A stretch of DNA of 64,000 nucleotides from a virus (IMGVR_UViG_3300014501_000016:2892-66891), one strand, 5' to 3'; shown: positions 25,891-47,079, numbered from the stretch's first letter. Notes: generated by a model not told the origin, from the letters alone. A program made the numbers and translations.

Positions 25891-25900
25891 GCTCATGGTT

Positions 25901-26187: not shown

Positions 26188-26814
26188 ATGTCCATTATCG
26201 GCAGCGTAAATGGATTTCCACTCCTATCGGTGCCGTTGACACCCGGGCAGAGGCAGGTGGACTGGTCGATGTGCAATATTGTCGGCGCGGTCCCGAACAG
26301 CTTTACGGGTAGGCAGCAAATCTATAGCTGGCAAGCTGCCTACTGGGAGGCGGTGGTCACCATGCCGCCGATGCCCAGGACTACCGCTGAATCATGGATC
26401 GCATTCATGGCCCAGGCTCAGGGGATGAACGCGGTTTTTTACTTCGGCGATGGCTTGGGCGCGCAGCCACAAGGGTCGGCGCAGGGGCCCGGCGTAACGT
26501 CTGGATCTTTCCAGGCGCCTTTCCAGCTTGCGACCAAGGGCTGGACCCCTGGACAGTTCGCGCTTCTGTCTCCGGGCGACTGGATACAGATTGGCTGGCG
26601 TTTGTACAAAGTCCTCGACCAGATATCTAGCGATGGCGCGGGCAATGCATCCTTCGCAATCTGGCCGCAGATTCGGGAGATTCCACCAAACGGAACTGCG
26701 ATTGTGACAACAAACGCGCAGGGCCTGTTCTGCATGAAGTCGAACGTTTTGAAGTATTCCGTCAGCTATCTGCGTACGTACGGTCTAAGTTTTGAGATTC
26801 GCGAAGCCATATAG
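26188..26814 (+). CDS. Distal tail protein (Dit-like)
   Basis: SFTGRQQ...WEAVVTMPP...WIAF....G...LSPGDWIQIG..LYKV...IWPQIR; position after TMP. Confidence 0.75.
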   Translation: MSIIGSVNGFPLLSVPLTPGQRQVDWSMCNIVGAVPNSFTGRQQIYSWQAAYWEAVVTMPPMPRTTAESWIAFMAQAQGMNAVFYFGDGLGAQPQGSAQGPGVTSGSFQAPFQLATKGWTPGQFALLSPGDWIQIGWRLYKVLDQISSDGAGNASFAIWPQIREIPPNGTAIVTTNAQGLFCMKSNVLKYSVSYLRTYGLSFEIREAI

Positions 26815-26913
26815 GCTGTTCGTTTTCGGGCCCATGGGACGCGAGTGGTACGAGATCCAGCCCGGCCCGGTGGAAATTGAAATCTTGCGCAAGTGGTACA
26901 GGGATGAAGGCCT

Positions 26914-27372: not shown

Positions 27373-27949
27373 CGTCACCTCGAACTATCTGTTGGCGCTC
27401 CAGGAGGGCTACTTATACCCGTGCATCCTTCTCGAGATCTATTTCGCATCCGGCCCGATACGAATCTGCACCGCGTATCAAAGCCTGATCATGGACGGCC
27501 TGCTTTTCACGGCCGCGGGCTCGCTTCTGCAAGTGTCAACGATTGAGGACGGGTCAAGCGTTCAGGCAAGAGGTGTCAGCGTAACGCTTTCGGGTATCGA
27601 TCCGAACTTGATTCAGTCAACGATGAGCGAGTTTCAGGTGGGGCTATCCGCGACCATCTACTTGGGTCTGTTCGCCGGTGAAGGGCTGGACCTGGTCAAC
27701 AATCCGGTCGTCGCCTGGCAAGGGAGAACGGATCAGCCGACCATCACCGTGGACGAGAAGAGGGCCAGCATTCAAATGAATCTGGAATCGGTGCTTCTCG
27801 ACATGAACGTGCCGGTTCCGTATCGGTATACGAATCAGGATCAACAGTTGTTCTCGCCGGGGGACCTTGGATTTTCCTGGGTCAATTCCATCCAGTCAAT
27901 CCTCATCTACTGGGGCACGAACACGAACTCGAATCCAGGTAATCCATGA
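27362..27949 (+). CDS. Tail hub/minor tail protein (gpL/DUF2163-like)
   Basis: LLEIYF.SG...G.LLQVSTIED....A.GV.VTLSG...RYT..DQQ..PGDLGF; position between Dit and NlpC/P60. Confidence 0.75.
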   Translation: MPRNVTSNYLLALQEGYLYPCILLEIYFASGPIRICTAYQSLIMDGLLFTAAGSLLQVSTIEDGSSVQARGVSVTLSGIDPNLIQSTMSEFQVGLSATIYLGLFAGEGLDLVNNPVVAWQGRTDQPTITVDEKRASIQMNLESVLLDMNVPVPYRYTNQDQQLFSPGDLGFSWVNSIQSILIYWGTNTNSNPGNP

Positions 27950-30003
27950 AGCGAATTCTCACTTTTATCGTGCTGCTGGCCTGTGCCATGGTCGCGAGCG
28001 CGCAGGTTCAGCAATCCGAAGTATGGCGGCCAATCACGGGCTATTCAGGCAACGGCCATGTGATCGCGACGGTTAACGGGCCCCTGACGCTGGGCGATTG
28101 CGATCAAAATGACGCGTATGGGAACATGGTAGATTCTGGCTTCCCTTGTACGGGTGGCGTAGATACTCGTCCCTCTGTTATTCAGTCTACGGTGAAAACC
28201 TCTGGCGGGGGCGTGCCATTGGCTGGTAGCGGTACAGCGCAGGTCTTCACTGTCACCGGTGCCGGAACGATCACCTACATCCACTTGACATTCGGCCCAG
28301 TCACCGGCGGAGACGCCGCTAACGTCATCCAGAACAGCACCCTCAATATCAACTGCGATGGCAACCCGCAGCTCGTCTCTCTAGGTGGATTTTTTCTGTC
28401 TCAGGATTCGCCGGCCGCCTTCGATACGGAGTACATCGGCATCCCGTCAACAGTCGCGGGATTCGCAACGAATGAAACATTCAACCGCCGCACCCAGATA
28501 AACTTTTACAGCGGCTGCACTATGACTGTTGTAAATGCCAGCTCAACCGGCGCTTCCCAGGTTTTTGCCGACGTTGCGTATAGATCAGGGACTCCGTCAT
28601 CTGGACCAACGAATTATTGGAACGCTTTCACCGCGCCATTTCAGCAGCTACCGGCAAACACCAGCGCATATAACTTCCCTCAGGTGTACATCCTTCCGCC
28701 GACCACGTTTTCAGGCGGCGGGGAATTTGAGTACATCGAAGAGTACTTCAATTCCGCGTCAAGCTACGGGTACATGGAGTCGACACCGATCGTGCTGGCG
28801 GATAGCGGTATTGCGGCGCAATCTGGCGGTCACGAAGACTTCTATGGTTCTGGTTACTACTGCAATGCGGTCAATGGGACTCCGCAAAGTTTCACGACGA
28901 GCAAGTATGGCTGCCTACTCTCGGCTGGCCTGCAAAATAAGGCGTCTGCGGATGACTTTGTGGGTTACCGATTTTTCACGAGTAACCCGGCTGACAACAT
29001 ATTTTTCAACAGCACGCTCTCCGTTTCCTCTGCGAACGGCGGCAGTAACTGTTGCTCCGCAGGAACCGTCGGCTGGGGCGGCATGGTCTCCTATTTCTCT
29101 AGAGTCCCTACTGTCGCTCAAATCAATTTCTCTCCCGCAGCCGGGACCTACACGGGAACACAGAGCGTAGCGCTTAGTGGAGGTCCGACCGGCGACTACG
29201 TTTGCTATGCGACCGGAAGCACTGTCCCAGTCTCCAATGGTTCAGGTGGGTGCTCGACCGGAACTCTCTATTCGAGCGCCGCCAGTGTGGCCACCTCGGA
29301 GACCTTGAACGCGGTAGGGGCAAAGTCTGGGTATAACAGCAGCCCGATGTCTTCTGCGGCTTATATCATCAACGCGGCATATAGTTCGCCCACCTATCGG
29401 ACGACATGCAACAACACTCCCGGGGCCGGGACTACGACTACGGTTAACTGTACCCTCACGCCGACCGCAGGAGACCTCGTGTTCGCCGTGTGCCGCGGGG
29501 GGAATGCATCGCAGACCAGCTACACAGTGACCAGTTCGCCGTCTGGAACATATGCCGCGATGACAATCGCCAATGGTGCCGGTGGCAGCAGTCAGGCGAG
29601 CTACGGGTTTGGCGCAACGGGTGGATCTACCACGTTTACCTGTACGACCGGCGCTGGTGGAACTAATTACCAGGGAATTCAGGTCTTGGACTATGCGCCG
29701 GGCTCAGTCACGTCGCTTGCGGCTGGATCATCGAATGTACTCGCCTCAACATCAACCTTCACCTCGGCCGCCATCAGCACGACCGGAGCGGCGTTCTTTA
29801 TCGCATGCGGGGATGCCCAGTACGGACCGCCAACGCTCTCCGTTGGAAACATCAATGGCAACACGGCGACAGCAAGAACGCTCGCATCCCCATCATCCGG
29901 ATGCGAAGATTTGTCAGTAGCTTCCTCTGCTACAAGCGCGACGGGAACAATAGGGGCCAGCAGCGCCGGTACTTGGGATGGCGTGATTGCCGCGTTCCAC
30001 TAA
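27946..30003 (+). CDS. Signal-peptide protein: DUF2961 (GH172)-like domain plus chitobiase/CHB_HEX_C-like Ig domain
   Basis: MKRILTFIVLLACAMVASA|Q; GAGTITYIHLT and GGHEDFYGSGYY; FSPAAGTYTGTQSVAL...TLNAVG. Confidence 0.7.
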   Translation: MKRILTFIVLLACAMVASAQVQQSEVWRPITGYSGNGHVIATVNGPLTLGDCDQNDAYGNMVDSGFPCTGGVDTRPSVIQSTVKTSGGGVPLAGSGTAQVFTVTGAGTITYIHLTFGPVTGGDAANVIQNSTLNINCDGNPQLVSLGGFFLSQDSPAAFDTEYIGIPSTVAGFATNETFNRRTQINFYSGCTMTVVNASSTGASQVFADVAYRSGTPSSGPTNYWNAFTAPFQQLPANTSAYNFPQVYILPPTTFSGGGEFEYIEEYFNSASSYGYMESTPIVLADSGIAAQSGGHEDFYGSGYYCNAVNGTPQSFTTSKYGCLLSAGLQNKASADDFVGYRFFTSNPADNIFFNSTLSVSSANGGSNCCSAGTVGWGGMVSYFSRVPTVAQINFSPAAGTYTGTQSVALSGGPTGDYVCYATGSTVPVSNGSGGCSTGTLYSSAASVATSETLNAVGAKSGYNSSPMSSAAYIINAAYSSPTYRTTCNNTPGAGTTTTVNCTLTPTAGDLVFAVCRGGNASQTSYTVTSSPSGTYAAMTIANGAGGSSQASYGFGATGGSTTFTCTTGAGGTNYQGIQVLDYAPGSVTSLAAGSSNVLASTSTFTSAAISTTGAAFFIACGDAQYGPPTLSVGNINGNTATARTLASPSSGCEDLSVASSATSATGTIGASSAGTWDGVIAAFH

Positions 30004-30019
30004 CCAAAAAAGGAAACCC

Positions 30020-32962
30020 ATGAAGAAAACAGCGCTCTTCTTAGCGTGTTGCGTCGTCGCGCTCATTTCTCCGTGGGCCGGTGCGCAGAATACCCAGATC
30101 ACGGCCAGTCACATTGCGTATTTTGGCGCTGGTGGCACCCTCATCACGGGAACGATGTGTCTCACGCCCACGAATCAGGCCGGGCAGCCGATCAATATCG
30201 TGACCTCGGTCGGCCAGCAGATTTCGCCCCAGGTTCCGCTCTGCTTCCCGATCACGTCCGGCGTCCTGTCTTCTTTGGCTATTGTTCCCGATACCTCGTT
30301 GACGCAGCCAGTGAACGCCTGTTACAACGCGGTCATCAATAATTATTACGGAACCCAAGTCGCGGTCTTTCCCTGCATCCAGCCGAGCGGTTCGACGTGG
30401 AGTTTCGACGCATTCGTGCCCAGCTCGATGCCGTCCATTCCCGCGCTTCAGCTTCCACAGTTCAGGCACAATGGCATACTCAACACCAGCCAAAATGGCC
30501 TCAACATCGTCGGCTCCGGAGTGACTGAATCGCCGGCGGGAACCATAAATATTCCGAGCGGTGTCCTGCCAGCCGCTTCCGGGTATGGACTTGTGCCCGT
30601 GTATACAGGCCCTGGAACAGCTACCAGCCCGCAGCAGGCAGTTCTCTCCTTTGGCAGCTCCTTCGATCAGTATTCCCAGCAGCAAGTAAACAACGCCAAT
30701 TACACAACTTTCCGGGTAAACGACCTAAACAATGTTTTCTATGCAGATGGATTTACTGCGGCAGGACAATACACGGGTATTGGCGTAGCTCAAGTGGCAT
30801 ATGGAGGGAGCACAGAATACCCTCTCTGCCAGGCTGTCAGCTATTCAGGGTCGAACTACGTCGCAGTAGGGCATAGCAATATCGGCATCACGCCGGGAAC
30901 CAACTTGGCGATCTGGTCGGTCCCGGTGCCCAATTCCGGTCCGACTACGGGCCCAGACTGCGCATTTTATACTGCCTACGCTTATAGCTATTCGCGCAGT
31001 GTTCAAACGTCGCTAGTGTTTGGTGGCCAGTTCTACAACACGCAGGGAATGATTGAGCCAACGGGACTTTACTCGGTCAATCTTATTGGTCAAGGGATAT
31101 TCGGGTCTTTCTTGACTTATACCGGTACAGCCGCTACGCCAGTAATCTATAGGCCTGACGGCGGAAACAACTATACCTACCTGCAGATCAAGAACTTCAT
31201 CATCGATGGCGGAGGGGTAGCGTCGTCGATCATGGACCTTGGGCAGCTCAATCAATCGGTCGCCGAGGAGATACAAGGGCAAAATATCGCCCCGAGCGCG
31301 CTAGGATCTGGTGGCCATTTCTTTGAGTTCGGCCTATCCCCCGGCGACTCGTTTCAAATGATGGCCAAGCACATAACGACGAGCGTCCCTGGAAATCGGG
31401 GAAACTCGGCTCAGATAATTGCAAACCTGACAGGCAGCACGCTTAGTTCTTTCACGGTGACGAATGGCGGCTCTGCCTACCCACCTCCAAGCTCGACCGC
31501 TGTCTACACAGTGCAGGTGCGTGGATATCAGGGGGGAACGGCGGTCCACCCCTGCACCGTAATGCCCACATGGACCGGTGTCCCTGTCACTATCGCGGCG
31601 GGTGTGCTTACAGCCATTGCCGCCCCGACATCTGGAGGTACAGGGTGCGTCGGGCCCCTTTATGTGCAGGTCTACGAGTCGTTTCCGGTGGACTATAGCG
31701 TGATTTGGAATTCGTCCGATTCAACCATGATAGATTCCACTTTTTACGCTGGTAACTTGGCCGCTGTCGAGGTACTTGCCGGGGATAACGTATTTGTTCA
31801 TCTTCACCCGTCCATCGTCCCAAATGGTGTTATCGTGAATGGCGGTTCGGCGATATTCGATGCAACAGAGTTGGATGGAATTTTCGACAAAGGATTCCAG
31901 TTGTTCGAGCCATACCCAACGCAAGCCACTTCAATTAACGGCACACATGGATACGACGCTGGATACAGATTGGCTGGATCTGTAACCTACTACCTTGGAA
32001 GCTCGGGCACTAATGCGACCTTTGGCCCATCTGCCAGCTTGTGCGATGCTTCTGCGACCATCCCCCCGCTTGGGTGGCAGGAGTTTGTAACTCAATCAGG
32101 ACCGATTCAGACACAGGCAGACTACCTAACTAAAGCCCCAGCGGACTTTAGTGTCACCGGAAACGATACAACCTGCGGTGAGGTGATAGGGGATTATCAG
32201 CCGACCGCTACTTTCGGGAAGATTATTTCTCCGTCTATTGTCTTGAGTGGCATAACTCCAGGAACCACTCCGGTATGTCCAAACGGAACGGGAGGGGCGC
32301 TTACTACGGCAGGATGTACATCTGCTGGCGCGGGTCTCGGAGCCAATTCATTCACGGGCAGCCAAACAATCGCCAGCGGATCTGATTTGATTTTAAATGG
32401 CGGGGTAAACCTTCATCTTTACTCGGACACGAGCGCAACTTATGCCGGATGGGACTTCTTTGACGGGACGAATCAATTTTTCAAGGTTCTCGATACCACT
32501 AGCGGTGGTGCCACCGGTGCAACCATGGCCTCCGGTGGGTGCATGCAGTGGACCAGTTCCTCATCTGGGCTATCGCTTTCAGACTCGTTCATCTGCCGAC
32601 CGAACGCCCATAATTTTACGTTCGGCTCAGTGCCCGGCGACTCCATTGGAGTCGTTATGGCGGGGATGTATGTCGTCGGCGGCTATACTTTCACTGCCAC
32701 TGGATGCAGCAACTCGACTCTGGTTGGCGGAGCTACGGCGGGCTCGTTTCACTCCGGGACCACAGGTACATGCACGGTCACAATCACCATGGCGAATTCA
32801 GATACAGCACCTAACGGGTTCTCTTGCAACAGGCCGAATGATCTGACGACTAACAGCGACTCAGCTAGCTGGAGCCAAACAGCAACCACGAGCACCACAG
32901 CGACACTGTCGGGAACCACAGTATCAGGAGACGTGATTAATTTCGCATGTACGCCATACTAG
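30020..32962 (+). CDS. Signal-peptide tailspike/fibre-like protein with probable beta-helix
   Basis: [22 protein letters not shown]|Q; VNLIGQGIFGSFLTYTG and QIKNFIIDG pectin-lyase-like rungs; Ser/Thr/Gly-rich with many Cys. Confidence 0.7.
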   Translation: MKKTALFLACCVVALISPWAGAQNTQITASHIAYFGAGGTLITGTMCLTPTNQAGQPINIVTSVGQQISPQVPLCFPITSGVLSSLAIVPDTSLTQPVNACYNAVINNYYGTQVAVFPCIQPSGSTWSFDAFVPSSMPSIPALQLPQFRHNGILNTSQNGLNIVGSGVTESPAGTINIPSGVLPAASGYGLVPVYTGPGTATSPQQAVLSFGSSFDQYSQQQVNNANYTTFRVNDLNNVFYADGFTAAGQYTGIGVAQVAYGGSTEYPLCQAVSYSGSNYVAVGHSNIGITPGTNLAIWSVPVPNSGPTTGPDCAFYTAYAYSYSRSVQTSLVFGGQFYNTQGMIEPTGLYSVNLIGQGIFGSFLTYTGTAATPVIYRPDGGNNYTYLQIKNFIIDGGGVASSIMDLGQLNQSVAEEIQGQNIAPSALGSGGHFFEFGLSPGDSFQMMAKHITTSVPGNRGNSAQIIANLTGSTLSSFTVTNGGSAYPPPSSTAVYTVQVRGYQGGTAVHPCTVMPTWTGVPVTIAAGVLTAIAAPTSGGTGCVGPLYVQVYESFPVDYSVIWNSSDSTMIDSTFYAGNLAAVEVLAGDNVFVHLHPSIVPNGVIVNGGSAIFDATELDGIFDKGFQLFEPYPTQATSINGTHGYDAGYRLAGSVTYYLGSSGTNATFGPSASLCDASATIPPLGWQEFVTQSGPIQTQADYLTKAPADFSVTGNDTTCGEVIGDYQPTATFGKIISPSIVLSGITPGTTPVCPNGTGGALTTAGCTSAGAGLGANSFTGSQTIASGSDLILNGGVNLHLYSDTSATYAGWDFFDGTNQFFKVLDTTSGGATGATMASGGCMQWTSSSSGLSLSDSFICRPNAHNFTFGSVPGDSIGVVMAGMYVVGGYTFTATGCSNSTLVGGATAGSFHSGTTGTCTVTITMANSDTAPNGFSCNRPNDLTTNSDSASWSQTATTSTTATLSGTTVSGDVINFACTPY

Positions 32963-32972
32963 AGGAGTCAAG

Positions 32973-33290
32973 ATGAAGCTTCTGCCATTATTGGTTTTAT
33001 TCGCCGCCGCAGCGCAGGCCCAGGTTGCTGGCCACGCGCCAGTTCGCCACCCCGATCAAGAGTTAAGGCAGGGTCATGCAATTCTGGCCCCTCGATTCAA
33101 TAAGGATGAGGCGGCATTCAAAGCCCTCCCCGCTCCATCACCTGACGCAATCAAGGCCGAACGCGAGATGCAGCAATGCTTTGCCGTCGCCCGCGGCACT
33201 GAGGGGATGTATGGCATTCCCGATGGCCAAGGCATGAAGCCCAATTGCGACCGCCAGTTCAACGCGCTCGAAGCGATTATCGGCAAATGA
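32973..33290 (+). CDS. Small exported protein
   Basis: MKLLPLLVLFAAAAQA|Q; one Cys pair; GAGGAG RBS. Confidence 0.7.
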   Translation: MKLLPLLVLFAAAAQAQVAGHAPVRHPDQELRQGHAILAPRFNKDEAAFKALPAPSPDAIKAEREMQQCFAVARGTEGMYGIPDGQGMKPNCDRQFNALEAIIGK

Positions 33291-33317
33291 TGACGGCGGC
33301 TCCAAAAAGGAAAACCC

Positions 33318-34652
33318 ATGCTTAAGAAAACAGCGCTTCGACTCGCGCTCTGCCTTGTCGCGCTCATTTCTCCGTGGGCGGCCCTGGCGCAGAGCATCTT
33401 CAACTGTTCCACCTTCAATGGCGGTTCTTCTGGAGCGTGTTCTGTAGCGCCCTACTATGACAACACGAATGGTTTCGCGACAACCCAGCAGATTTGGATC
33501 AGATCCACCTGTCAATCAAGCGCGAGCCCGTCTTGCCTCTCTGGCACAGCGGCCAACTTCGTGCCCACGGCCGCCACGCACAACGGCTATGGGATGGCTT
33601 ACTCTGTCGGCAAAGTAAACGTTCAAGCATTCACTGAAACCTTCACCTTTGTGCCCAACGGATGGAACTTTGCGCTCGTCATGCAGGATGACAATACCCA
33701 CTCTGGCTTCGAAGGTGCCGCGTTTTCCTCCGGAGCATCATGCGAGGCTGGGTTTTATCAGGATGACGGGGTAGATCCGACCCCGAACAACCTTTTCGCG
33801 CTGGACTTCGATTCTTCCGGCTACATCGGCGGCTCGTTCAGCTACAGCACGGTGCAGATTTACCAGCAGCATCAGTCGCCCTGCCAGCCGAACGATGGAG
33901 GCACGCACTGGTATTCGACCACAAAAACCAGCACCTCTCCCGTTCCGCTGACCTCTCCAGCCAGCACGCAATACTCGACCACCGGAGACACTTACTCGGC
34001 CACGGTTACTTATGACGGGTCCACCCTGACGCTCGCAATGTACGACATGACCGCCTCAGGATCGTGCCCAGGAGCAAGCTGCTTCACCAACACCTGGTCG
34101 AACGTAAGCATCCCGTCAGTGGTGGGAGCGAGCACAGCTTGGCTCGGCTTCACTTCGGCCGTAGGAAGCGGCAGTCCGCAAGAACCTTCTCAGTACCCGC
34201 TGCTTGTGAAAACGTGGAGCTATACGGTCAATACGCCCACGGCCAATCCAAGCACCACTGCCTGGAACACAGGGTCCACCTACAACACCGGCACCGTCTC
34301 CGCGGCGAGCCCGGTTTACTCTGTGGCGCCGGGGACCTATTCAGGGACACAAAGCGTGTCGATCACCAGTTCCACCGGCAGCGCAAACATCTGCTATGTA
34401 GTGTCTTCCACCACGCCCACGCTCTACCCTCAGGTGGACAACAACGGAGGCTGCGCGGCGGGAACTGCTTACACCGGGCCAGTCTCCATCCCGTCCACTT
34501 CCACGCTCTACGCTATGGCCGGAACGCCTTGGGGTACTGGACCGCCAAGCACGCTGGTAGCAGGGACCTACACCATCAGTCCGAGCAACCAGGTGAATGG
34601 CACCATGGCCGGCGGCATGATGAGTTTCGTTTCTGAGGACAGGACCAAATGA
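33318..34652 (+). CDS. Signal-peptide protein: legume(L)-lectin-like domain plus CHB_HEX_C-like domain
   Basis: [24 protein letters not shown]|Q; [12 protein letters not shown]...FALVMQ...FALDFD...[12 protein letters not shown]...AWLGFTSA. Confidence 0.75.
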
Positions 34653-36490
34653 AGAAATTAGCGTTCGCACTCGCGCTGTTCTTGGCTTCGCTCATTTCTC
34701 CGTGGGCGTCACAAGCACAGACCACGACCATTACCGCGAGCCTGATACAGCACGACGTGTCAGGCGATCTGCTCACGACCGGCTTCTTTCAGCTGATCCC
34801 GGTCAACCAGTTGGGCAATGTCGCGGCGTTCACGGCTTGCGGCGGTGGCCAGGTGCTGCCGATCGTTTACTTCTGGCCGATTGTCAACGGCGTGATTACC
34901 GGTGGCGCGACCGTTCCTGATAGCTCTTGCGCAACGCCCAGCGGAGTTGGCTATCTCGTCTCGATCACGGCGACGAATCACCAGGTGCTCTACAGCTACG
35001 GCCAGCCGATTCATCCGACCGGAAGCACTTGGTCGTTCGATACCTGGTCCCCCACCTCGGTCTATACTCCCGCGCCAGCCAACGCAGTCGGCAGCGGAGG
35101 ATCGGCTCCGGTCGGGGCCTGCACCGCGCCGTCGATCTATTACACCGGTTCGTCGATCTACTATTGCCAGGGCGGCGTGTGGGTGCTCTTCTCCTCGGGC
35201 GGCAGCAGCACGATCAGCTGGCAAGGGGCATGGGCTAGCGGCACGACATACAGCACGGGTATGGGAGTCAGCCGCACGGTCAGCGGTGTTGCCAGCAGCT
35301 ACGTTTCGATCAATTCGAGCACCGGTGCGGCTCCTGAGAGCAACCCTGGACACTGGCAGCTTCTTGCGTCCGGGGCTGTGGGCACGGCAGGCGCAACCGG
35401 GGCGACCGGTCCAGCAGGCGCAACGGGGGCAGCCGGAGCCACGGGTGCGACCGGAACGACAGGCGCGACGGGAGGGGCAGGTGCTGCGGGCGCGACCGGC
35501 GCCACGGGGCCAGCAGGCTCAACCGGTGCGGCAGGTGCCACGGGTGCTGCGGGAGTTGGTCTCCCCACGGCGACCGCAGCGGGCCAACAACCATATTCTG
35601 CAGGGGCCGGTACCACCTATGCCGCGGACGGCAACCTGTCGCGCACGCCGGCAGGCATTCAGCGCCAGGCAATTGCCGGCAGCACAATCACTTCCTCGAG
35701 CACTATTGCTCCGACGAGCCCCGTTTCCTATGTCAGCGGGAGCGCGAGCGTCAATGTGATGACACCGCCGACCGGCTGCACGACAACCGGCGTCGATTGC
35801 AAGCTTGAACTTGTCGCGGCCGCATTCTCGAGCTGGACCACTGCGACCGGCGGCGGCGCTGGGGGATTCGCTTCCGTAAGCACCCCGCTTCCAGGGCAGG
35901 CACTTCTCTTCAGCTATGACCCTGCCGTCGGACTATGGTACCCGTCTGGGGGCGGCATACCGCAGCCGCCCGGAAGCGGCGTGCCCACGTGGGATGCCGT
36001 ATCCGGTCGCTGGGCGGGCTTCTATCCCGTCAACGGCACGGGCAATCTGGTTGCTGGCAGCGTGCTCGCAGGTTATTGCCCGCTCACCGGTTGCGCCTAT
36101 ACCGGAGGCATATCGGTCGGCGGCGCCGGTACCGGCATTGCTGGCCTAGGGACCACCGCCATCACAGCGGGCGCGAGCAGCTTTATCGGCACCGGCGGCA
36201 CGGCAGCACCCGCGACAAGCGCCATCTGCGATTCTTTTAGCGGCACGATCACGCTGACAACCGGAACGGGCACACCCACCACGGGCATGGTCCTCACGCT
36301 CACGCTGCCCAGCGGTCGGGCTTCCCCGCCCAACGTTCTCTCGAGTTTCGTTGATTCAAACGGAAATCGGGCAGCAGTCACTATGACGGTGACAGACTCG
36401 GCGGGAATAATCACGCTTGTCTATACTTCGAAGACGGCCCTGACCGCATCGACCGTTTACACCGTAACTTATATGGCCATGGGGATATAA
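34649..36490 (+). CDS. Signal-peptide tail-fibre-like protein with collagen-like stalk
   Basis: [23 protein letters not shown]|Q; [11 protein letters not shown] module; Gly-X-Y repeat run; C-terminal beta domain. Confidence 0.75.
35372..35560 (+). repeat. Collagen-like Gly-X-Y (GAT/GAA/GPA) coding repeat
   Basis: [63 protein letters not shown]. Confidence 0.9.
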
Positions 36491-39232
36491 ATGCGCGCAA
36501 CTCTCCAGGGCATTCTTCGCGGCTTGGCATTCTTGCTGTTCGTGTGCCCGATGGCGCGCGCGACTACCTTTAACGTCAATGGCTCCCAGACTCAATCGAC
36601 TATCCAGGGGGTCATCAGTGCGGCTTCCCCGGGGGATACTATATCGTTCGCGTCCGGAACTTATACCCTAAGTTCGTCCCTTACCCTTAAGTGCGGCATT
36701 ACCTACACCGGGCCAGTGACCACCCCTGCTACCGCAAAAATTACTACGAGCACAGCAAACATATCGCTGCTTCAGATGTATGGAGGGTGTTCATCGGGAA
36801 CGACAACGATTGAGTACCTGCAGCTTGATGGGGCAGGAGCGATATTTTTTGATACAAGCGGTTATACCAACGTCAATTTTCTGCACAATCAAACTACCTC
36901 TGTCCCCTACAATCCTAGCGCTTATGGCGCCACCTCATCGCTGTTCCTTAGTGGAAACATAACTAATATCGACGCAAACTTCACGATCGAGTACAACACT
37001 TTTGGTGACGCCAACTCATGCACAGCAGCGCTCAGTGTGGATGACGGTACTTGCGCGGGAGTCATCACCGGCAATGTCGGACATCTCCGCAACTTCACCA
37101 TGAAGTACAACACCTTCTACCATCTTGGCGAGGGTGTCCATATGGAGCAAGTGGACTATGTTCCGGGTGCTCAACCCATTGGCGACTGTAACAATTGCGA
37201 CATCGAATTTAACTTTTTCAACCAAATAGTCAGGATTTGGATGGAGATACAAATCGGCGTTGAAGATGGCGGCAACCCGATGATCACAAGCAATAACGTG
37301 TTCATGAACCCCTACCAGGGAGGTGTTCCCTGGAGTGGGATGGCGCTATCTGCGCCATGCTGTCAATCTTCTGGCCCCACTACCCATCCGACTAATACGA
37401 TTCCATCGAACTTAATCCAAAACAATCTGTTTATAAACTCGCTGAGCACGTCTTTTGCTACACCTAACGGCATAGAAATGTCCGGGTCGGGAACGCAGGC
37501 CACCAATAATTTGATTCAAGGATTTTTTTGTACCGGAGTGGTGTGGTCGACCAATAGTCACAGTTGGGCCATCTCCAACAATACGATCACGGGACAAATG
37601 ATGGCTTCTGGGTCTGCCTGCTACAGTTTTGGAGGCAGCCAGTTCACGACCAGCGAGTGCACTGGCTGCACCGCGCCGATTATGGCGGGAAACGTAACCG
37701 GGTCAACGTCATCAGCTATTACCAGCGTCGCTCCCACCTCCATCTCTCCAGCGGCTGGAAGCTACGCCTTCCCGCTTGCGGTGACGCTCACCGATCCCGG
37801 CTATACTTCGGGCGCCATACCATTAGGCAATACTGGCATCTGGTACACCACAGACGGATCTACGCCAGTTCCGGGATCGGGGACAGCTAAATATCTCGCA
37901 AGTGGCGGCAGTTTCATCTTGCCCTCTGCGGCAACGGTCAAGGCGGTAGGCATGTGGGGGAGTGCCAATCAGCCTACGAGTTATCCCGGCGGATACGGGT
38001 TCGTTCCAAGCTCGGTGGTGAGCGCTGCCTATTCGGCCTCCGGAGGAGTCTTGACCCTTACCGGCATTACGCTCGGCGCCCCATCGACGGCGCTGATTGC
38101 TGGCGGCGCGGCCGAGCAGGGCACCCTCATCTGCCATTATTCCGATAGCTCGAGCGATGATTGCACGAACACCGATGCGCATGGATTCGGGCCGGGCACA
38201 TTCGCCAGCTCGTTGGCGTCCGTCGCCACAATATCTTCCACGGCATTGATAACTCCGCTGGTCGCCGGCACAACCAACTTGACCGCAACGCTGGGCGTCC
38301 TCACTTCTACCTTGCCCATATCGGTAAGTAGTGGTGCATCTCCATTTTTGGGAAACAACCAGGAAAATTTCGCCGGGTTCACCTCTGCCAACTTTTTCAA
38401 CAGCGTTTATGCCATCAGTCCGCCCTATGCGACCACGGTCGGCAATTGTCATTTCTTCCTGCCGACAGGCACCATCACTTTGGGCGCTCACTACGATTGC
38501 CTGATCATCACAGCGCCGACTGCCACGACGGAAGCATCGGCGCTCACCTGTCACGCAACCTATACGACCACCAGCACCAGCGCGCCGAACGCGTTTGTTA
38601 GCTTGCCGATCACGGGTTGCGGGACGATTGCGGCCTCTACTCCCTATTGGGTAGCCACCAACACCAACGATTCGAGCGGGCCTAATTTTGGATTTTGGAA
38701 TTGTGGCGGAAGCTGCGGGGCGACCGCTCCGACCACCTATGGCACAGGCACCTATTCGAGTTATTGGGTGGCCATCAATTACGGCACATATACCGGATTG
38801 CCCAGCTCGCTCTCCGCGAACACCTACCAGGTCTCGCAATATGTCGACCTGATGCCCACCGCGCCGACGCTGGTCAGTGGATATCAGGACAATACGCTGT
38901 CGATCAACAAGATCGTTCTAGGCTCCGGCTATCAGCAGCATGCCTATTGCGTCTACAGCGACGGCGTTATCTACCCCTGCGATACCACCGACGCACGCGG
39001 GAACGCGGTGACGGCCTGGACGGAGGACAGCGGCGGCGTGATCCTCGCGATCGGTGCCGTGGGCAGCGGGAGCCCTGGCCTTATCACCGCGACAGGATAT
39101 GGCCAGACGAATACTCATTGCACGCTGACGGGTTCCGTTTCCTGTGCTGAATACACCTGGACCGTGACAAACCAACCGGCGACGAGCTCGGTAATACAGG
39201 GCGCGAACCTTCACGGCAGCAACGTTAACTAA
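36491..39232 (+). CDS. Signal-peptide protein: parallel beta-helix plus CHB_HEX_C and Big_2-like Ig domains
   Basis: MRATLQGILRGLAFLLFVCPMARA|T; TIQGVISAASPGDTISFASGTY; repeated IEYNTF/ITSNNVF rungs; IWYTTDGSTP; ASVATISSTALITPLVAGTTNLTAT. Confidence 0.75.
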   Translation: MRATLQGILRGLAFLLFVCPMARATTFNVNGSQTQSTIQGVISAASPGDTISFASGTYTLSSSLTLKCGITYTGPVTTPATAKITTSTANISLLQMYGGCSSGTTTIEYLQLDGAGAIFFDTSGYTNVNFLHNQTTSVPYNPSAYGATSSLFLSGNITNIDANFTIEYNTFGDANSCTAALSVDDGTCAGVITGNVGHLRNFTMKYNTFYHLGEGVHMEQVDYVPGAQPIGDCNNCDIEFNFFNQIVRIWMEIQIGVEDGGNPMITSNNVFMNPYQGGVPWSGMALSAPCCQSSGPTTHPTNTIPSNLIQNNLFINSLSTSFATPNGIEMSGSGTQATNNLIQGFFCTGVVWSTNSHSWAISNNTITGQMMASGSACYSFGGSQFTTSECTGCTAPIMAGNVTGSTSSAITSVAPTSISPAAGSYAFPLAVTLTDPGYTSGAIPLGNTGIWYTTDGSTPVPGSGTAKYLASGGSFILPSAATVKAVGMWGSANQPTSYPGGYGFVPSSVVSAAYSASGGVLTLTGITLGAPSTALIAGGAAEQGTLICHYSDSSSDDCTNTDAHGFGPGTFASSLASVATISSTALITPLVAGTTNLTATLGVLTSTLPISVSSGASPFLGNNQENFAGFTSANFFNSVYAISPPYATTVGNCHFFLPTGTITLGAHYDCLIITAPTATTEASALTCHATYTTTSTSAPNAFVSLPITGCGTIAASTPYWVATNTNDSSGPNFGFWNCGGSCGATAPTTYGTGTYSSYWVAINYGTYTGLPSSLSANTYQVSQYVDLMPTAPTLVSGYQDNTLSINKIVLGSGYQQHAYCVYSDGVIYPCDTTDARGNAVTAWTEDSGGVILAIGAVGSGSPGLITATGYGQTNTHCTLTGSVSCAEYTWTVTNQPATSSVIQGANLHGSNVN

Positions 39233-39250
39233 AAGAGAACGAGGCCGGAA

Positions 39251-39595
39251 ATGGTGCGCGTAAAAACGGGGCAAGATGGAAAGGCAATAGGCACCTGGAA
39301 GCCTGGCGATCCGCCCCCGGTAAGCCAGGACGACAGTCTGCCTCAGATGCCGAATTGGATCATCGGCATCCTGCTCGATTCACCTGACGAGATCGTTCAC
39401 GCCGCGGCCTTGCGCTATCAGGTGGCTGAGCCGCATCGTCACATATCGCGCGAGGACCCGCTCTTCTCCGGCACATGGCTGGTGCTCGAAAAGGACTACA
39501 CCGGGCGAGGGTGCGTGTATCTGTTTCACCCGCCCGAGGCCGAGATTAAAGCGAAAGCGTGGGCCAAACTAAAGAACGAATTACTGGATTTGTGA
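39251..39595 (+). CDS. Hypothetical protein (paralog A)
   Basis: EDPLFSGTW...YTGRGCVYLFH motif. Confidence 0.6.
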   Translation: MVRVKTGQDGKAIGTWKPGDPPPVSQDDSLPQMPNWIIGILLDSPDEIVHAAALRYQVAEPHRHISREDPLFSGTWLVLEKDYTGRGCVYLFHPPEAEIKAKAWAKLKNELLDL

Positions 39596-39601
39596 TGCGC
39601 C

Positions 39602-39877
39602 ATGACCAAGCGCAATCCGCAACGCAAAGGCGATGCGCGGGGACTGTGGAAGCTGGTGCAGCCGGAACCGCCCACGGAGATTCCGGGCCCCGTTATGTTC
39701 AATCTACCTCGCATGCGTTATCGCGCCCTCGAAGACCCATTCTTCCTCGGCACATATAAGGCCGAACCAGTTAGCTATACGGGGAGAGGCATCGTCTACC
39801 TGTTTCACGGCAGGGGCGCGCGACAGAAAGCTCAGGCGAAGGCGGCGGAGATCAATCAGAGGGACGGGTTCGTGTGA
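39602..39877 (+). CDS. Hypothetical protein (paralog B)
   Basis: EDPFFLGTY...YTGRGIVYLFH motif. Confidence 0.6.
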   Translation: MTKRNPQRKGDARGLWKLVQPEPPTEIPGPVMFNLPRMRYRALEDPFFLGTYKAEPVSYTGRGIVYLFHGRGARQKAQAKAAEINQRDGFV

Positions 39878-40205: not shown

Positions 40206-40646
40206 ATGAGGCGACATCCGGATTGGGCAACGCGCCTCGATGTATACATTGCAGCGAACGCATCCATGCCGTTCAGCTATGAGCGCGCGAACGGATTGGA
40301 TTGCTGCACGTTCGCGTTCGGGGCTATCCATGCCATGACCGGCATCGCGATAGGCGCCCAGTTTGTGGGCATCTACAGCACGAAACGTGAATCACTCATC
40401 GCAATGCGGAGTTACTGCGGGAGCCCATCGCTTCGCATGGCGATCGCGAAGTTGATGACTGAAAACAAGTTTGGGCGCCGTCCTCCGCTTTTTGCGCAAC
40501 GTGGCGATGCGGTTCTCGTGCCGAACGGTCCGGCAGGAGAATTCTTTGGCGTGGTTGACCTCAATGGACGAGACGTATTAGGTATCGGCGACCGTGGCAT
40601 ACGCCGCGTCCCAATAAGCATTGAATGCCGTGCCTGGCGCATTTAG
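40206..40646 (+). CDS. Tail-associated NlpC/P60-like protein (DUF6950/gpK-like)
   Basis: DWATRL.....PFSY...DCCTFA..AI.AMTG...AQRGDAVL...AWRI. Confidence 0.8.
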   Translation: MRRHPDWATRLDVYIAANASMPFSYERANGLDCCTFAFGAIHAMTGIAIGAQFVGIYSTKRESLIAMRSYCGSPSLRMAIAKLMTENKFGRRPPLFAQRGDAVLVPNGPAGEFFGVVDLNGRDVLGIGDRGIRRVPISIECRAWRI

Positions 40647-46176: not shown

Positions 46177-47079
46177 ATGAGCACCGGAGCACCGCTAAAC
46201 CTGACCCTGGTACCGGACGGCACCGTTGGCTGGGGCAATGCCGAACGCGCGGACTTTACCGCGCTTAATACCGCGATTGCAGCACTCCAAGCAGGTGGCT
46301 CGACGGGTCCGGCTGGGGCTGCAGGAGCTGCGGGCGCAGTCGGTATCATCTGGGCGGGCCCGTGGGGGGCTGGCACGCCTTATGTGGCCACGGACGCGGT
46401 CTCGTTCAATGGCTCGAGCTATCTCGCGGTGGCACCCAGTACCGGAGTGCAGCCGGACACGCATCCGTCCACTTGGGCAATCCTGGCACTGGCCGGGGCA
46501 ACGGGACCGACCGGGCTACAGGGTCCGGTTGGTCCACCTGGCAGTGGCGGCGGAAGCACGGTCACTTTCCCGGTGACGGTCGCGGAAGGTGGAACGGGAG
46601 CCGTCACCGCACCCTTGGCACGGACTGCGCTTGGAGCGGCTGCGAGCGGGGTCAACAGCGATATCACATCGCTGTTGGGCATTCCCGGCGTGGTTTTCTC
46701 AGCCGACTTCTTATCGTTCACTCTGGGCTCCGTAACCTTCAGCATGAGCCATGCCGGATTCAGCGTGGTCGGCGGGATCACGTGCGGAAATTTGCTCACA
46801 TCTGGGATCATAGGGACGGGTGTTATCAACTCGGCTGTCCCTAATTCTGAGATCCTCATCGGCAGTTATGGCGGTGATGCTGGCTGGCTGCATGCGAACA
46901 ATGGCCTGGTGATCTCCGGTTCGCCACCGGTTGTTCTGTCGGGACAATTGGGCATCAGCGGTAACACATCCAGCACCTGCTCGGCGGGGGGCGGCCAGAC
47001 TGTCCCGGCGACGATATTGACCTGTATTCCGGTCAACGTCGGCGGCGTGGCTGGCAAAATTTTAGTCTTCGCCCCCTAG
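46177..47079 (+). CDS. Short tail fibre protein (no signal peptide)
   Basis: Gly-X-Y stretches, WAGPWGAGTPY module, GGTGAVTA..ARTALGAAASGVNSDITSL fibre motif. Confidence 0.75.
   Translation: MSTGAPLNLTLVPDGTVGWGNAERADFTALNTAIAALQAGGSTGPAGAAGAAGAVGIIWAGPWGAGTPYVATDAVSFNGSSYLAVAPSTGVQPDTHPSTWAILALAGATGPTGLQGPVGPPGSGGGSTVTFPVTVAEGGTGAVTAPLARTALGAAASGVNSDITSLLGIPGVVFSADFLSFTLGSVTFSMSHAGFSVVGGITCGNLLTSGIIGTGVINSAVPNSEILIGSYGGDAGWLHANNGLVISGSPPVVLSGQLGISGNTSSTCSAGGGQTVPATILTCIPVNVGGVAGKILVFAP

What the first reader, a model, noticed from the sequence alone, without database searches (positions are those of the whole stretch)
27946..39232. Six Sec-exported proteins, five of them fibre/adhesin-like, built into the tail operon: possible periplasmic or post-lysis virion maturation system
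Seen: between the hub gene and the NlpC/P60-gpJ genes are six co-oriented genes, each starting with a classical signal peptide ending in an AxA-type site (ASA|Q, AGA|Q, AQA|Q, ALA|Q, SQA|Q, ARA|T). The first overlaps the hub stop (ATGA), 34649 overlaps 34652, and 36491 abuts its neighbour; no internal terminators were seen. The five large proteins are Ser/Thr/Gly-rich with many closely spaced Cys and carry beta-helix, L-lectin, DUF2961-like, CHB_HEX_C, Ig and collagen modules. Established: tailed-phage virions assemble in the cytoplasm and receptor-binding proteins normally lack signal peptides; disulfides form in the periplasm. Inference: these are late-expressed receptor-binding or decoration proteins that are exported and oxidatively folded, then dock on the particle at or after lysis. 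Alternatively they are released glycan-degrading accessories or lysogenic-conversion adhesins.
Basis: partly seen in the sequence, partly recalled or inferred. Interest (0 to 1): 0.92.

Follow-up and report, generated by a model that had tools for sequence, protein, structure and literature searches.

The report
Exported tail-fibre-like proteins in an acidobacterial phage
A soil phage of Acidobacteria carries, inside its tail genes, six proteins that look like host-recognition fibres and sugar-binding enzymes but bear export signals, a combination that is widespread in phages of this phylum and that does not fit the textbook picture of tail assembly inside the cell.

Summary
Six co-oriented, tightly packed ORFs (27946-39232) lie between the gpL-like tail-tip gene and the DUF6950/J genes of a 67-kb IMG/VR phage record. 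All six begin with Sec-type signal peptides.

The export signals look real. Two of the six (p2, p5) share an N-terminal domain that defines a family of 1,444 representative clusters. Of 161 members examined, 102 have a signal peptide and 50 do not. Mature cysteine counts are even in 92/102 of the former and 26/50 of the latter, which is a disulfide signature.

In related acidobacterial prophages this domain sits inside the tail-tip module. Its model resembles virion-docking N-domains of phage fibres, including the Ur-lambda side-fibre collar (Z 8.0, a modest score). The bodies of p1, p2, p4 and p6 recur, shuffled, in other signal-peptide proteins of viral contigs. The cultured podophage Tunturi_2 has a similar run of such genes.

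Best reading (about 0.4): these are exported, oxidatively folded side fibres or depolymerases, and those with the collar domain join the tail at lysis. Main rival (about 0.3): they are free exported glycan-active proteins. No virion proteomics exists. Four literature searches found no prior description.

The parts
26188..26814 (+). distal tail protein (Dit)
   Evidence: phrog_1302 E 2.5e-25. Homologous to Dit of L004, L014 and L015.
Its stop overlaps the p1 start (ATGA).
   Evidence: phrog_2048 E 4.2e-37. tblastn to 131 phage records, some annotated 'minor tail protein L'. Junction sequence.
27946..30003 (+). p1: signal peptide + DUF2961 (GH172-type, recalled) jelly-roll + CHB_HEX_C-like domain + Ser/Thr-rich C-terminus. 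16 Cys in the mature protein.
   Evidence: P0016 fuses a p1-like body to the N-domain. The CHB_HEX_C part is 54% identical over 74 aa to the C-terminus of Tunturi_2 gp17.
30020..32962 (+). p2: signal peptide + collar-like N-domain (nt 30086-30460) + large body with beta-helix/tail-fibre-like neighbours. 18 Cys in the mature protein.
   Evidence: The body is 38% identical to signal-peptide ORFs in viral loci L020 and L021.
32973..33290 (+). p3: small signal-peptide protein. Mature part about 88 aa with 2 Cys. No relatives found.
33318..34652 (+). p4: signal peptide + legume-lectin-like domain (inferred from homologues) + CHB_HEX_C_1. 10 Cys in the mature protein. Its signal peptide is 80% identical to that of p2.
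   Evidence: In L021 the p4 body is fused to a p6 body.
34649..36490 (+). p5: signal peptide + collar-like N-domain (nt 34718-35092) + tail-fibre motif + collagen repeats + C-terminal knob. 9 Cys in the mature protein.
   Evidence: phrog_5073 tail fiber E 2e-17 and Pfam Collagen. N-domain model pLDDT 91.9. Homologues P0001-P0016.
36491..39232 (+). p6: signal peptide + right-handed beta-helix (aa ~1-500, a lead only) + Fn3_assoc/Big-like modules. 24 Cys in the mature protein.
39251..39877 (+). Two small ORFs without signal peptides (39251-39595, 39602-39877) that share a 31-aa segment. Function unknown.
40206..40646 (+). DUF6950 protein in the gpK position
   Evidence: PF22262 E 4.3e-27. Adjacent to the gpL-like gene in CRP-823 and JenP1.
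41495..45841 (+). central tail fibre J (no cleavable signal peptide)
   Evidence: phrog_5616, phrog_2871 and phrog_31.
46177..47079 (+). Conventional tail fibre without a signal peptide. It shares the phrog_5073 motif with p5.

Best explanation
The block is the accessory host-recognition module of a siphovirus of Acidobacteriaceae, and its proteins are made for export.

Proposed mechanism.
1. All six genes are transcribed with the tail-tip genes.
2. The proteins cross the inner membrane by Sec, lose their signal peptides, and fold in the periplasm with disulfide bonds.
3. p2 and p5 are side fibres. After cleavage, their first residues start a transthyretin-like 'collar' domain of the kind that fastens lambda side fibres to the outside of the tube/Dit junction.
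4. Because that site is on the surface of a finished tail, these fibres can be added late. That would happen when holin/endolysin action mixes virions with periplasmic contents, at or just after lysis.
5. p1 (DUF2961), p4 (lectin-like) and p6 (beta-helix) are glycan-binding or glycan-cutting modules of the same mosaic pool. They either ride on p2/p5 or act free.
6. p3 may be a periplasmic helper.

Status of each step.
- Shown: the genes, the signals, their tail-module position, the family-wide disulfide signature, the module shuffling, and the rarity in host genomes.
- Inferred: export in vivo, cleavage, and docking on virions.

Sub-confidences. Genuinely exported and phage-intrinsic RBP-like proteins: about 0.85. 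Virion docking of p2/p5: about 0.4.
For: 1. Signal peptides. The six score 4.4-5.8 on my heuristic; only 3 of the 66 other ORFs reach 4.4. Control phages give 1/18 and 1/19, none of them fibres.

2. Size of the family. A profile of the signal-peptide-free N-domain finds 1,444 representative clusters at E<=1e-3, and 1,129 at <=1e-10.

3. Two classes. Of 161 members examined, 102 have a signal peptide, 50 start directly at the domain, and 9 are other.

4. Disulfide signature.
- Cys in the N-domain is even in 97/102 signal-peptide members, against 24/50 signal-peptide-less members.
- Cys in the whole mature protein is even in 92/102 against 26/50.
- In the bodies alone it is even in 81/93 against 22/38.
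- Median Cys is 1.97% against 0.92% (Mann-Whitney p 3e-17).
- Cys columns occur as pairs of equal frequency: 24&51, 52&62, 40&69, 76&95.
- The same parity holds in 14 of 16 signal-peptide proteins of the window, Tunturi_2, L020 and L021.

5. Host machinery. Three acidobacterial genomes that carry such prophages encode DsbA-like and VKOR proteins (3 of 3 for each).

6. Cleavage site. The predicted site falls exactly where signal-peptide-less homologues begin (MPTGYT... / MTTVSAT...).

7. Genomic context.
- In known relatives, Dit-L-DUF6950-J are contiguous.
- In 5 of 5 acidobacterial loci with both flanks recognisable (L004, L012, L013, L014, L015), the N-domain ORFs lie between TMP and J. In L013 a signal-peptide form follows TMP directly, the place a signal-peptide-less form holds in L004.
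- All 7 genome loci found are Acidobacteriota.

8. Fold of the N-domain (model pLDDT 91.9).
- Best PDB rows are N-terminal virion-attached fibre domains: A-1(L) neck fibre Z 8.5, Bxb1 tail tip Z 8.2, Ur-lambda tail tip chain Ta residues 1-88 Z 8.0 with rmsd 2.5 over 85 residues.
- Foldseek gives A-1(L) tail fibre at E 3.5e-3.
- BFVD top rows are minor tail or tail fibre proteins, 4 of them at E<=1e-3.
- In Ur-lambda, gpStf residues 1-94 form a 12-copy collar around the gpV/gpM junction (passages of PMC12617516).

9. Fibre features. p5 matches the phrog_5073 tail fibre family and has collagen repeats. It shares that motif with the signal-peptide-less fibre 46177-47079.

10. Mosaicism. The p2, p4 and p6 bodies recur in other signal-peptide ORFs of viral loci L020 and L021, joined to other N-adaptors or to each other. 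A p1-like body is fused to the N-domain in the metagenome protein P0016.

11. Phage-borne rather than core host genes. N-domain matches occur in 3 of 151 sampled class genomes. That tally includes the centre G001 and the unpublished G174. The p6 helix matches 0 of 81 and 0 of 151 genomes; the positive control worked.

12. Operon structure. There are no terminators or promoters above chance in the block, two ATGA overlaps, and SD-like motifs before p2-p5.

13. Cultured phage. Tunturi_2 has signal peptides on gp12, gp13 ('tail fiber'), gp14 ('pectin lyase'), gp16 and gp17 ('virion structural protein').
Against: - No tool here can show export, cleavage or presence in virions. No virion proteomics was found.
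- Tailed-phage virions assemble in the cytoplasm, so docking needs an unproven extracytoplasmic step.
- The fold match (Z about 8) is at the level the tool calls typical for a best hit. A generic transthyretin-like domain scores Z 7.8.
- The signal-peptide and signal-peptide-less classes are largely clade-structured. There are 11 state changes on the tree and only 3 independent pairs on supported branches, so the phylogenetically controlled test has no power.
- Only 2 of 38 signal-peptide-less bodies resemble a signal-peptide body, which weakens the case for functional equivalence.
- p1, p4 and p6 start directly with enzyme-like or lectin-like domains, with no adaptor.
- The p6 and p4 families include lipoprotein forms and members on Mb-size contigs.
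- The phage already has J and a conventional fibre without signal peptides.
- Bacterial WceF shows that an exported tailspike-like trimer can keep a P22-like N-domain without any virion (passages of PMC7949094).
Confidence: 0.4

Rival explanations
1. Free exported accessory proteins. The six are late-expressed, Sec-exported glycan-binding or glycan-cutting proteins that never join the virion. They act from the periplasm or after release on the infected cell's own EPS, LPS or capsule. This would strip receptors, stop progeny from sticking to debris, exclude superinfection, or loosen the matrix for escape. On this reading the shared N-domain is only a trimer cap inherited from fibre ancestors.
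For: - p1, p4 and p6 begin directly with DUF2961, lectin-like and beta-helix domains and lack an adaptor.
- 77 of 119 p6 homologues score as secreted. About 8 more have the signal behind a mis-called start, and 6 are lipoproteins.
- WceF is a precedent: an exported tailspike-like depolymerase that keeps a phage-type N-domain.
- The phage has its own signal-peptide-less J and fibre.
- Signal-peptide and signal-peptide-less bodies are mostly different (2 of 38 shared).
Against: - It does not explain why the same N-domain occurs without a signal peptide at the same tail-module position.
- It does not explain why that domain resembles virion-docking domains.
- The block takes about 17% of the genome here, and the five Tunturi_2 proteins together take a comparable share there. 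That is a heavy cost for an accessory function.
- A Sec signal alone reaches only the periplasm of a diderm.
Confidence: 0.3
2. Moron or lysogenic-conversion cargo. The block is host-benefit cargo (adhesins, CAZymes) inserted in the tail operon and expressed from the prophage, like lambda lom/bor or prophage CAZymes.
For: - The block interrupts an otherwise contiguous L-DUF6950-J unit.
- 5% of prophage CAZymes carry signal peptides (passage of PMC13507307).
- The p4 and p6 families have members on long contigs.
Against: - There is no promoter or terminator signal above chance in the block, and it is translationally coupled to L.
- GC of the block (0.54-0.57, with 0.635 in the collagen part) is like the rest of the phage.
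- Related acidobacterial prophages carry such genes in the same module.
- A similar run exists in Tunturi_2, for which no integrase is reported.
- N-domain and p6 matches are rare in sampled host genomes.
- RNA-library contigs identical to the window lie in tail genes as well as in the block. This is weak evidence, because DNA can be present in such libraries.
Confidence: 0.12
3. The N-terminal hydrophobic stretches are not working export signals (wrong starts, or membrane tethers), and the proteins are ordinary cytoplasmic fibres.
For: - The IMG gene call for p6 starts 95 aa downstream and so lacks the signal (P0163).
- Internal ATGs exist near the cleavage sites of p1 (codon 15) and p6 (codon 21).
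Against: - The residues upstream of those internal starts are conserved in homologues: the listed relatives cover 61-100% of the query region, most of them 90% or more.
- Signal-like N-termini persist although their sequences diverge.
- The even-Cys signature is specific to signal-peptide members.
- No SD-like motif precedes the internal ATGs.
Confidence: 0.05

Closest known systems
Side tail fibre Stf of Ur-lambda (N-terminal collar domain, gpStfN)
   Same: An N-terminal ~90-residue beta-sandwich followed by a trimeric shaft and a variable distal part. The fold match is Z 8.0, rmsd 2.5 over 85 residues. The lambda domain docks on the outside of the tube/Dit junction of a lambda-type tail tip (passages of PMC12617516). 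The window has the same Dit-L-(K-position)-J tail tip.
   Different: Stf has no signal peptide and is encoded after J. Here the genes lie between L and the K-position gene, carry Sec signals and are Cys-rich. There is no sequence similarity, and the fold score is modest.
Multi-tailspike or branched-fibre phages (CBA120, G7C, DT57C type; recalled, apart from the DT57C title seen in the listing)
   Same: Several receptor-binding proteins in a row, shared N-terminal adaptors and mosaic C-terminal bodies.
   Different: Those proteins are cytoplasmic. None is reported with a signal peptide.
Pantoea stewartii WceF
   Same: An exported (there by Tat) trimeric beta-helix protein with a tailspike-like fold and a phage-type N-terminal domain that acts on EPS (passages of PMC7949094).
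   Different: WceF is a chromosomal gene of an EPS cluster, not in a phage tail operon. It is a single gene and uses Tat, not Sec.
Filamentous-phage pIII/pVIII (recalled)
   Same: Virion proteins, including the receptor-binding one, made with signal peptides and disulfide-bonded in the periplasm before joining the particle.
   Different: Those virions are assembled at the membrane and extruded. This is a tailed phage with terminase, portal and capsid.
Phage morons and exported phage proteins (lambda Bor/Lom, T5 Llp, HK97 gp15: recalled; Sec and SAR endolysins: passages of PMC6116005)
   Same: Phage genes with export signals, some of them placed within or beside tail genes.
   Different: Those are small single proteins for exclusion, serum resistance or lysis. 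They are not 11 kb of fibre-like or depolymerase-like mosaic proteins with a shared adaptor domain.
Tunturiibacter phage Tunturi_2 gp12-gp17
   Same: A cultured acidobacterial phage with five consecutive or near-consecutive signal-peptide proteins in the structural region. Four of the five have even Cys counts. The gp17 C-terminus shares the CHB_HEX_C-like module with p1.
   Different: It is a podovirus. It has no N-domain of the p2/p5 type. The signal peptides are not mentioned in the paper's main text.

Membership tests
Sec-type (signal peptidase I) exported proteins | N-terminal positive n-region, hydrophobic h-region, small residues at -3/-1 | tested here: met
   Read directly in all six. 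Heuristic scores 4.4-5.8, with controls. SignalP itself was not available.
Sec-type (signal peptidase I) exported proteins | Export and cleavage in vivo | not testable with these tools
   Indirect support only: even Cys counts in 92/102 signal-peptide members against 26/50 signal-peptide-less members, and DsbA-like/VKOR genes in 3 of 3 host-type genomes.
Lambda-Stf-type collar (fibre N-terminal docking) domain | Lies at the very N-terminus of the mature fibre protein | tested here: met
   The domain starts at the predicted cleavage site in p2 and p5, and at residue 2-5 in signal-peptide-less homologues.
Lambda-Stf-type collar (fibre N-terminal docking) domain | Same fold as gpStfN | tested here: inconclusive
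   Z 8.0, rmsd 2.5, 85 of 94 residues. The tool notes that Z 7-8 is a typical best score, and a transthyretin-like domain scores Z 7.8.
Lambda-Stf-type collar (fibre N-terminal docking) domain | Binds the tube/Dit junction of the tail | not testable with these tools
   No experimental or structural data. See Tried and rejected.
Phage tail fibre (phrog_5073 / collagen-shaft type) | Family profile match and trimeric shaft repeats | tested here: met
   For p5: phrog_5073 E 2.1e-17, Pfam Collagen above cut-off. Not met for p1-p4 and p6, which have 0 PHROG families.
Moron / lysogenic-conversion cassette | Own promoter and terminator, separate from the late operon | tested here: not met
   Sites are at chance level and there is no strong hairpin inside 27946-39232. 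Overlapping or abutting starts. The scan covers sigma-70-type promoters only.
Moron / lysogenic-conversion cassette | Restricted to temperate phages and expressed in the lysogen | tested here: inconclusive
   A similar signal-peptide run occurs in Tunturi_2, which has no reported integrase. Expression state is not testable; RNA-library contigs are not decisive.
DUF2961 (PF11175; GH172-type, recalled) | Pfam profile match above the gathering score | tested here: met
   For p1 residues 144-368: 37 bits against a cut-off of 27. Catalytic residues were not examined.
Right-handed beta-helix tailspike/depolymerase | Beta-helix fold, trimer, glycanase site | tested here: inconclusive
   No Pfam Beta_helix hit for p6 or p2. 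Atlas structural neighbours NosD/Beta_helix give TM by row 0.63-0.85 over p6 residues ~7-500, all under the tool's bar. p2 feature scores are 0.84, leads only.
Legume-type lectin domain (PF00139) | Pfam profile match | tested here: inconclusive
   p4 itself has no hit even at E<=5. Many homologues of p4 residues 22-320 carry PF00139 in the precomputed annotation.

The most novel reading that the evidence does not exclude
Tailed phages of Acidobacteriota assemble their virions in two compartments. Heads and tails are built in the cytoplasm. A large, fast-evolving set of side fibres and depolymerases is exported by Sec and hardened by periplasmic disulfide bonds. It snaps onto the finished tails through a collar domain only when lysis merges the compartments. 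This would be an extracytoplasmic maturation step not described for Caudoviricetes.
Probability: 0.35. Interest if true: 0.9.

Novelty: new variant of a known kind. Interest (0 to 1): 0.78.

Why it matters
Receptor-binding proteins of tailed phages are treated as cytoplasmic. Absence of a signal peptide has even been used as an argument for phage origin (passage of PMC6199706).

This case shows a family of at least 1,444 clusters in which about two thirds of the 161 members examined are built for export, with a clear disulfide signature. The genes sit in tail operons of phages of one of the most abundant soil phyla.

If the proteins dock on virions, that adds a new assembly step, and it suggests how soil phages toughen their host-recognition gear. 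If the proteins act free, it reveals a large phage-encoded secretome that remodels host envelope glycans or EPS in peat and permafrost soils.

There are practical consequences too:
- Gene callers can hide the signal. The p6 call on record starts 95 aa late.
- Filters for AMGs or CAZymes may misclassify these genes.

Cultured Tunturi phages and their hosts make the question directly testable.

Tried and rejected
Searches that returned nothing useful.
- Single-protein scans of viral contigs with the gpL-like protein, p6 and p1 found no relatives.
- phmmer of p1, p2, p4 and p6 against PDB sequences found nothing at E<=1.
- tblastn of p6 and p2 against GenBank phages found nothing. p1 hit only the CHB_HEX_C module of Tunturi_1 and Tunturi_2.
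- PHROGs gave 0 families for p1-p4 and p6.
- The N-domain HMM found nothing in the Tunturi_2 locus.
- p3 has no similarity to other small signal-peptide ORFs.
- No lysis genes were recognised among 20 further ORFs.

Complex prediction. Tube + Dit + N-domain as partner gave 'no answer' (score 0.00, mark 0.32, collected). This is neither for nor against binding.

Phylogenetic contrasts. The test of signal peptide against Cys parity was underpowered, with 3 supported pairs.

Cys pairing in the small set. A clean pairing difference between signal-peptide and signal-peptide-less members in the first 19-sequence set was suggestive only. It was replaced by the 152-member count.

Read laying.
- RNA-library contigs of X13 and X15 are short and cover 17 and 13 of 30 bins. 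Uncovered bins mean nothing.
- No contig bridges the L/p1 junction by 31 or more letters.
- Transcription is not shown.
- No contig joins across the whole six-gene block.
- Small-share runs X7-X15 were not otherwise used.

Rejected idea. I considered that the block is a recent foreign insertion. GC is similar to the rest of the phage, there is no punctuation, and homologous arrangements exist in relatives.

Literature. Four searches found no description of signal-peptide-bearing tail fibres in tailed phages. This covers only the library searched. Supplements, such as Table S3 of PMC11924767, were closed and may hold annotations that bear on this.

Full report
WHAT THE WINDOW IS. The window is bases 2892-66891 of a linear 66,891-base IMG/VR virus record, which CheckV rates 91% complete. 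It encodes:
- large terminase (9231-10922), portal (10936-12621) and major head protein (14819-16135);
- a tape-measure-size protein (21915-24344);
- a distal tail protein (26188-26814) and a gpL-like tail-tip protein (27362-27949);
- a DUF6950 protein (40206-40646) and a J-type central fibre (41495-45841);
- a conventional tail fibre (46177-47079).

In the nearest annotated phages (Roseobacter phage CRP-823, coliphage JenP1), the genes TMP, Dit, L-like, DUF6950 and J are contiguous and overlapping. The 11.3 kb under study therefore interrupts a normally tight tail-tip unit.

THE OBSERVATION. Six co-oriented ORFs fill 27946-39232.
- SignalP was not available, so I used a crude score. It singles out these six, two small ORFs behind the tape-measure gene and one antisense ORF (9 of 72 ORFs at 4.4 or more).
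- In two non-acidobacterial relatives only 1 of 18 and 1 of 19 structural CDS reach 4.0, and no fibre gene does.
- The L stop overlaps the p1 start, p4 overlaps p5, and p6 abuts p5.
- Terminator-like and promoter-like sites are at chance level, and the strong hairpins lie upstream of Dit.
- The five large proteins are 35-43% Ser+Thr+Gly. The six have 1.5-2.7% Cys, against 19-26% and 0-1.1% for the capsid and tail proteins.
- Pfam confirms DUF2961 (p1), CHB_HEX_C_1 (p4, and nearly p1) and collagen (p5). The Ig-like call for p6 is below cut-off.
- The beta-helix of p6 is a lead from structural neighbours.
- The lectin call for p4 rests on homologues that carry PF00139.

ARE THE SIGNALS REAL? p2 and p5 share, right after the signal, a domain of about 115 residues (40% identity).
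- Sixteen metagenome homologues all keep a signal-like N-terminus of divergent sequence, the conserved domain, and unrelated C-terminal parts. One of them fuses the domain to a p1-like body.
- A profile built from the signal-free domain of 19 sequences finds 1,444 representative clusters at E<=1e-3 among 1.84 billion.
- Among the 161 members I examined, 102 carry a signal peptide (93 by score, 9 by eye). 50 start directly at the domain, 3 have a short non-signal extension, 5 have long extensions and 1 is ambiguous.
- Cys counts separate the two classes. In the N-domain, signal-peptide members have 2 Cys (38), 4 (58) or 6 (1), and only 5 have an odd number. Signal-peptide-less members have 0 (3), 1 (24), 2 (19), 3 (2) or 4 (2).
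- Over the whole mature protein, counts are even in 92/102 against 26/50. In the bodies alone they are even in 81/93 against 22/38.
- Cys-rich alignment columns come in pairs of equal frequency in signal-peptide members and are nearly empty in the others.
- The same parity holds for 14 of 16 signal-peptide proteins of the window, Tunturi_2, L020 and L021.
- Three acidobacterial genomes with such prophages encode DsbA-like and VKOR proteins.

I read this as strong indirect evidence that the signal-bearing forms fold in an oxidising compartment, which means they are exported.

Caveat. The two classes are largely separate clades: 11 state changes on the tree, and 3 independent pairs on supported branches. 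The between-class contrast is therefore not phylogenetically controlled. The within-class parity does not depend on that contrast.

WHERE THE FAMILY LIVES.
- Scans found 8 viral and 7 genome loci. All 7 genome loci are titled Acidobacteriaceae or Acidobacteriota, including Edaphobacter sp. HDX4.
- Eight of the 15 have BLAST-level homologues of this phage's tail genes. In the 5 with both flanks recognisable, the N-domain ORFs lie between TMP and J:
  - TMP, then N-domain protein (no signal), then a small ORF, then Dit, (L), DUF6950 and J in L004. L014 and L015 are the same downstream, but no TMP homologue was recognised upstream of the N-domain ORF.
  - Two to four N-domain or signal-peptide ORFs, then L, DUF6950 and J in L012 and L013. 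L013 also has TMP directly before them.
- In the other loci the N-domain ORF follows a 1,000-1,300-aa ORF of another tail type.
- Signal-peptide-less forms start MPTGYT... or MTTVSAT... with no upstream coding potential for a signal. The predicted cleavage site of the signal forms falls at the same point.
- The domain is rare in host genomes: 3 of 151 sampled genomes of the class, counting the centre genome and the unpublished G174.
- The p6 helix was found in 0 of 81 and 0 of 151 genomes, with a working positive control, but in 4 viral loci.
- In those viral loci the bodies of p2, p4 and p6 reappear in other signal-peptide proteins. They are fused to each other (p4+p6 in L021) or to a second kind of shared N-adaptor with a CPGC motif (two ORFs of L020).

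This mosaic pattern, with a shared N-terminal adaptor and swapped bodies, is how receptor-binding proteins of phages are built.

WHAT THE N-DOMAIN LOOKS LIKE. The AlphaFold model is confident (pLDDT 91.9).
- The three best solved matches are all N-terminal, virion-attached parts of phage fibres: cyanophage A-1(L) neck fibre (Z 8.5), mycobacteriophage Bxb1 tail tip (Z 8.2) and Ur-lambda tail tip chain Ta residues 1-88 (Z 8.0). A generic transthyretin-like domain follows at Z 7.8.
- Foldseek agrees: A-1(L) tail fibre at E 3.5e-3, and BFVD top rows that are minor tail or tail fibre proteins.
- In Ur-lambda, residues 1-94 of the side fibre form a 12-copy collar around the junction of the last tube ring and the Dit ring (gpM), and flexible linkers lead to the trimeric shaft (passages of PMC12617516).
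- I take chain Ta to be that domain from its length and residue range. This is an inference.
- The scores are modest, so the resemblance is a lead with a clear mechanistic reading, not proof.

A CULTURED PARALLEL. The CHB_HEX_C-like module of p1 matches the C-terminus of gp17 of Tunturiibacter phages Tunturi_1 and Tunturi_2.
- In Tunturi_2, gp12, gp13 ('tail fiber protein'), gp14 ('pectin lyase'), gp16 and gp17 ('virion structural protein') all begin with signal peptides. Four of the five have even Cys counts.
- The paper describes Tunturi 1-3 as podovirus-like and reports integrase or recombinase genes only for Tunturi 3-5 (abstract and section 19 of PMC11924767).
- Its main text does not contain 'signal peptide' or 'mass spectrometry'.

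So the phenomenon is not tied to temperate phages or to one adaptor domain.

HOW IT MOST LIKELY WORKS. The genes are co-transcribed with the tail-tip genes. This is inferred from packing and the lack of punctuation. Proteins are exported by Sec, cleaved, and folded with disulfides. This is inferred from the signals and the Cys signature.

For p2 and p5, the collar-like domain, the signal-peptide-less homologues at equivalent positions and the fibre motifs of p5 point to side fibres that bind the outside of a finished tail. Such a site allows late addition, so docking when lysis merges periplasm and cytoplasm is the simplest route.

A plausible benefit is disulfide-stabilised host-recognition proteins for an acidic, protease-rich soil. 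This is speculation.

p1, p4 and p6 have no adaptor. They may ride on p2/p5 or act free. I put about 0.85 on 'exported, phage-intrinsic, RBP-like' and about 0.4 on virion docking.

RIVALS.
- Free exported glycan-active proteins that remodel the infected cell's envelope or matrix: about 0.3. WceF shows that an exported tailspike-like trimer can keep a phage-type N-domain.
- Lysogenic-conversion cargo: about 0.12. Operon structure, synteny in relatives and the Tunturi case argue against it.
- Non-functional signals: about 0.05.

OTHER DATA.
- DNA contigs of two further peat metagenomes cover all 30 bins of 22000-41999, so the phage with this block recurs in other samples. Run X1 may be the source sample and is left out.
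- Two peat metatranscriptome libraries hold short contigs identical to parts of p1, p4, p5 and p6, and also to parts of the tape-measure gene and the ORF at 24372-24848. X15 also has depth in the bin 40676-41342, upstream of J. This fits co-expression but does not show transcription, because DNA may be present in such libraries.

NOVELTY. Four full-text searches found no report of signal-peptide-bearing tail fibres in tailed phages. One paper uses the absence of signal peptides as a mark of phage origin. Known exported phage proteins are endolysins, and small exclusion or conversion proteins and filamentous-phage coat proteins (recalled). I class this as a new variant of a known kind: receptor-binding modules of tailed phages made for export. 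If docking is confirmed, it would be a new assembly route.

Noticed in passing
window 24372-26180: Two small ORFs with signal-peptide or TM-like N-termini (24372-24848, 24829-25290) lie between the tape-measure gene and Dit. They are followed by three strong terminator-like hairpins on the + strand (25315, 25700, 26140). This looks like a separate moron-type insertion. RNA-library contigs identical to 24407-24859 are among the deepest laid.
   Followed up: partly
window 26914-27372: The 152-aa ORF just upstream of the gpL-like gene resembles the C-terminal end of the tape-measure protein (42% over 52 aa, TMP residues 755-806). It may be a duplicated or relic TMP end.
   Followed up: no
window 39251-39877: Two small ORFs without signal peptides, directly after p6, share a 31-aa segment at 55% identity. 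They could be fibre-assembly helpers. No family was found.
   Followed up: no
window 39871-40203: A DNA contig of run X3 joins 39870 to 40204, so it lacks the 333-nt spacer between the second small ORF and DUF6950. This is an indel polymorphism between strains.
   Followed up: no
window 36491-36775: The gene call on record for p6 (P0163, 818 aa) starts 95 codons downstream and loses the signal peptide. Homologues cover the upstream part, so automated calls can hide these signals.
   Followed up: partly
window 48207-48827 (-): A 206-aa ORF has a lipoprotein-type N-terminus (MRKFLMCLLTCCLTG|C) on the opposite strand downstream of the fibre genes. It may be a spanin or exclusion lipoprotein. No family hit was found.
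   Followed up: no
L013 7325-11875: A 1,516-aa ORF in an Acidobacteriota genome contig carries the N-domain internally (from residue ~893), after Ig-like repeats. It is either a fusion or two genes read as one.
   Followed up: no
L020 5197-8802 and 12253-16374: A second kind of shared N-terminal adaptor occurs here: signal peptide, then Q(V/I)AGTGKTGP...VDCPGCS. It heads two large proteins of one viral contig, one of them with a p2-like body.
   Followed up: partly
L019 (Tunturi_2, PP885685.1) 1652-14594: gp12, gp13, gp14, gp16 and gp17 of a cultured acidobacterial podophage all start with signal peptides. This is not mentioned in the paper's main text.
   Followed up: partly
window 4135-5247: A 370-aa ORF combines weak ABC-ATPase/SMC_N-like and GNAT acetyltransferase matches, an unusual pairing for a phage early region.
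   Followed up: no
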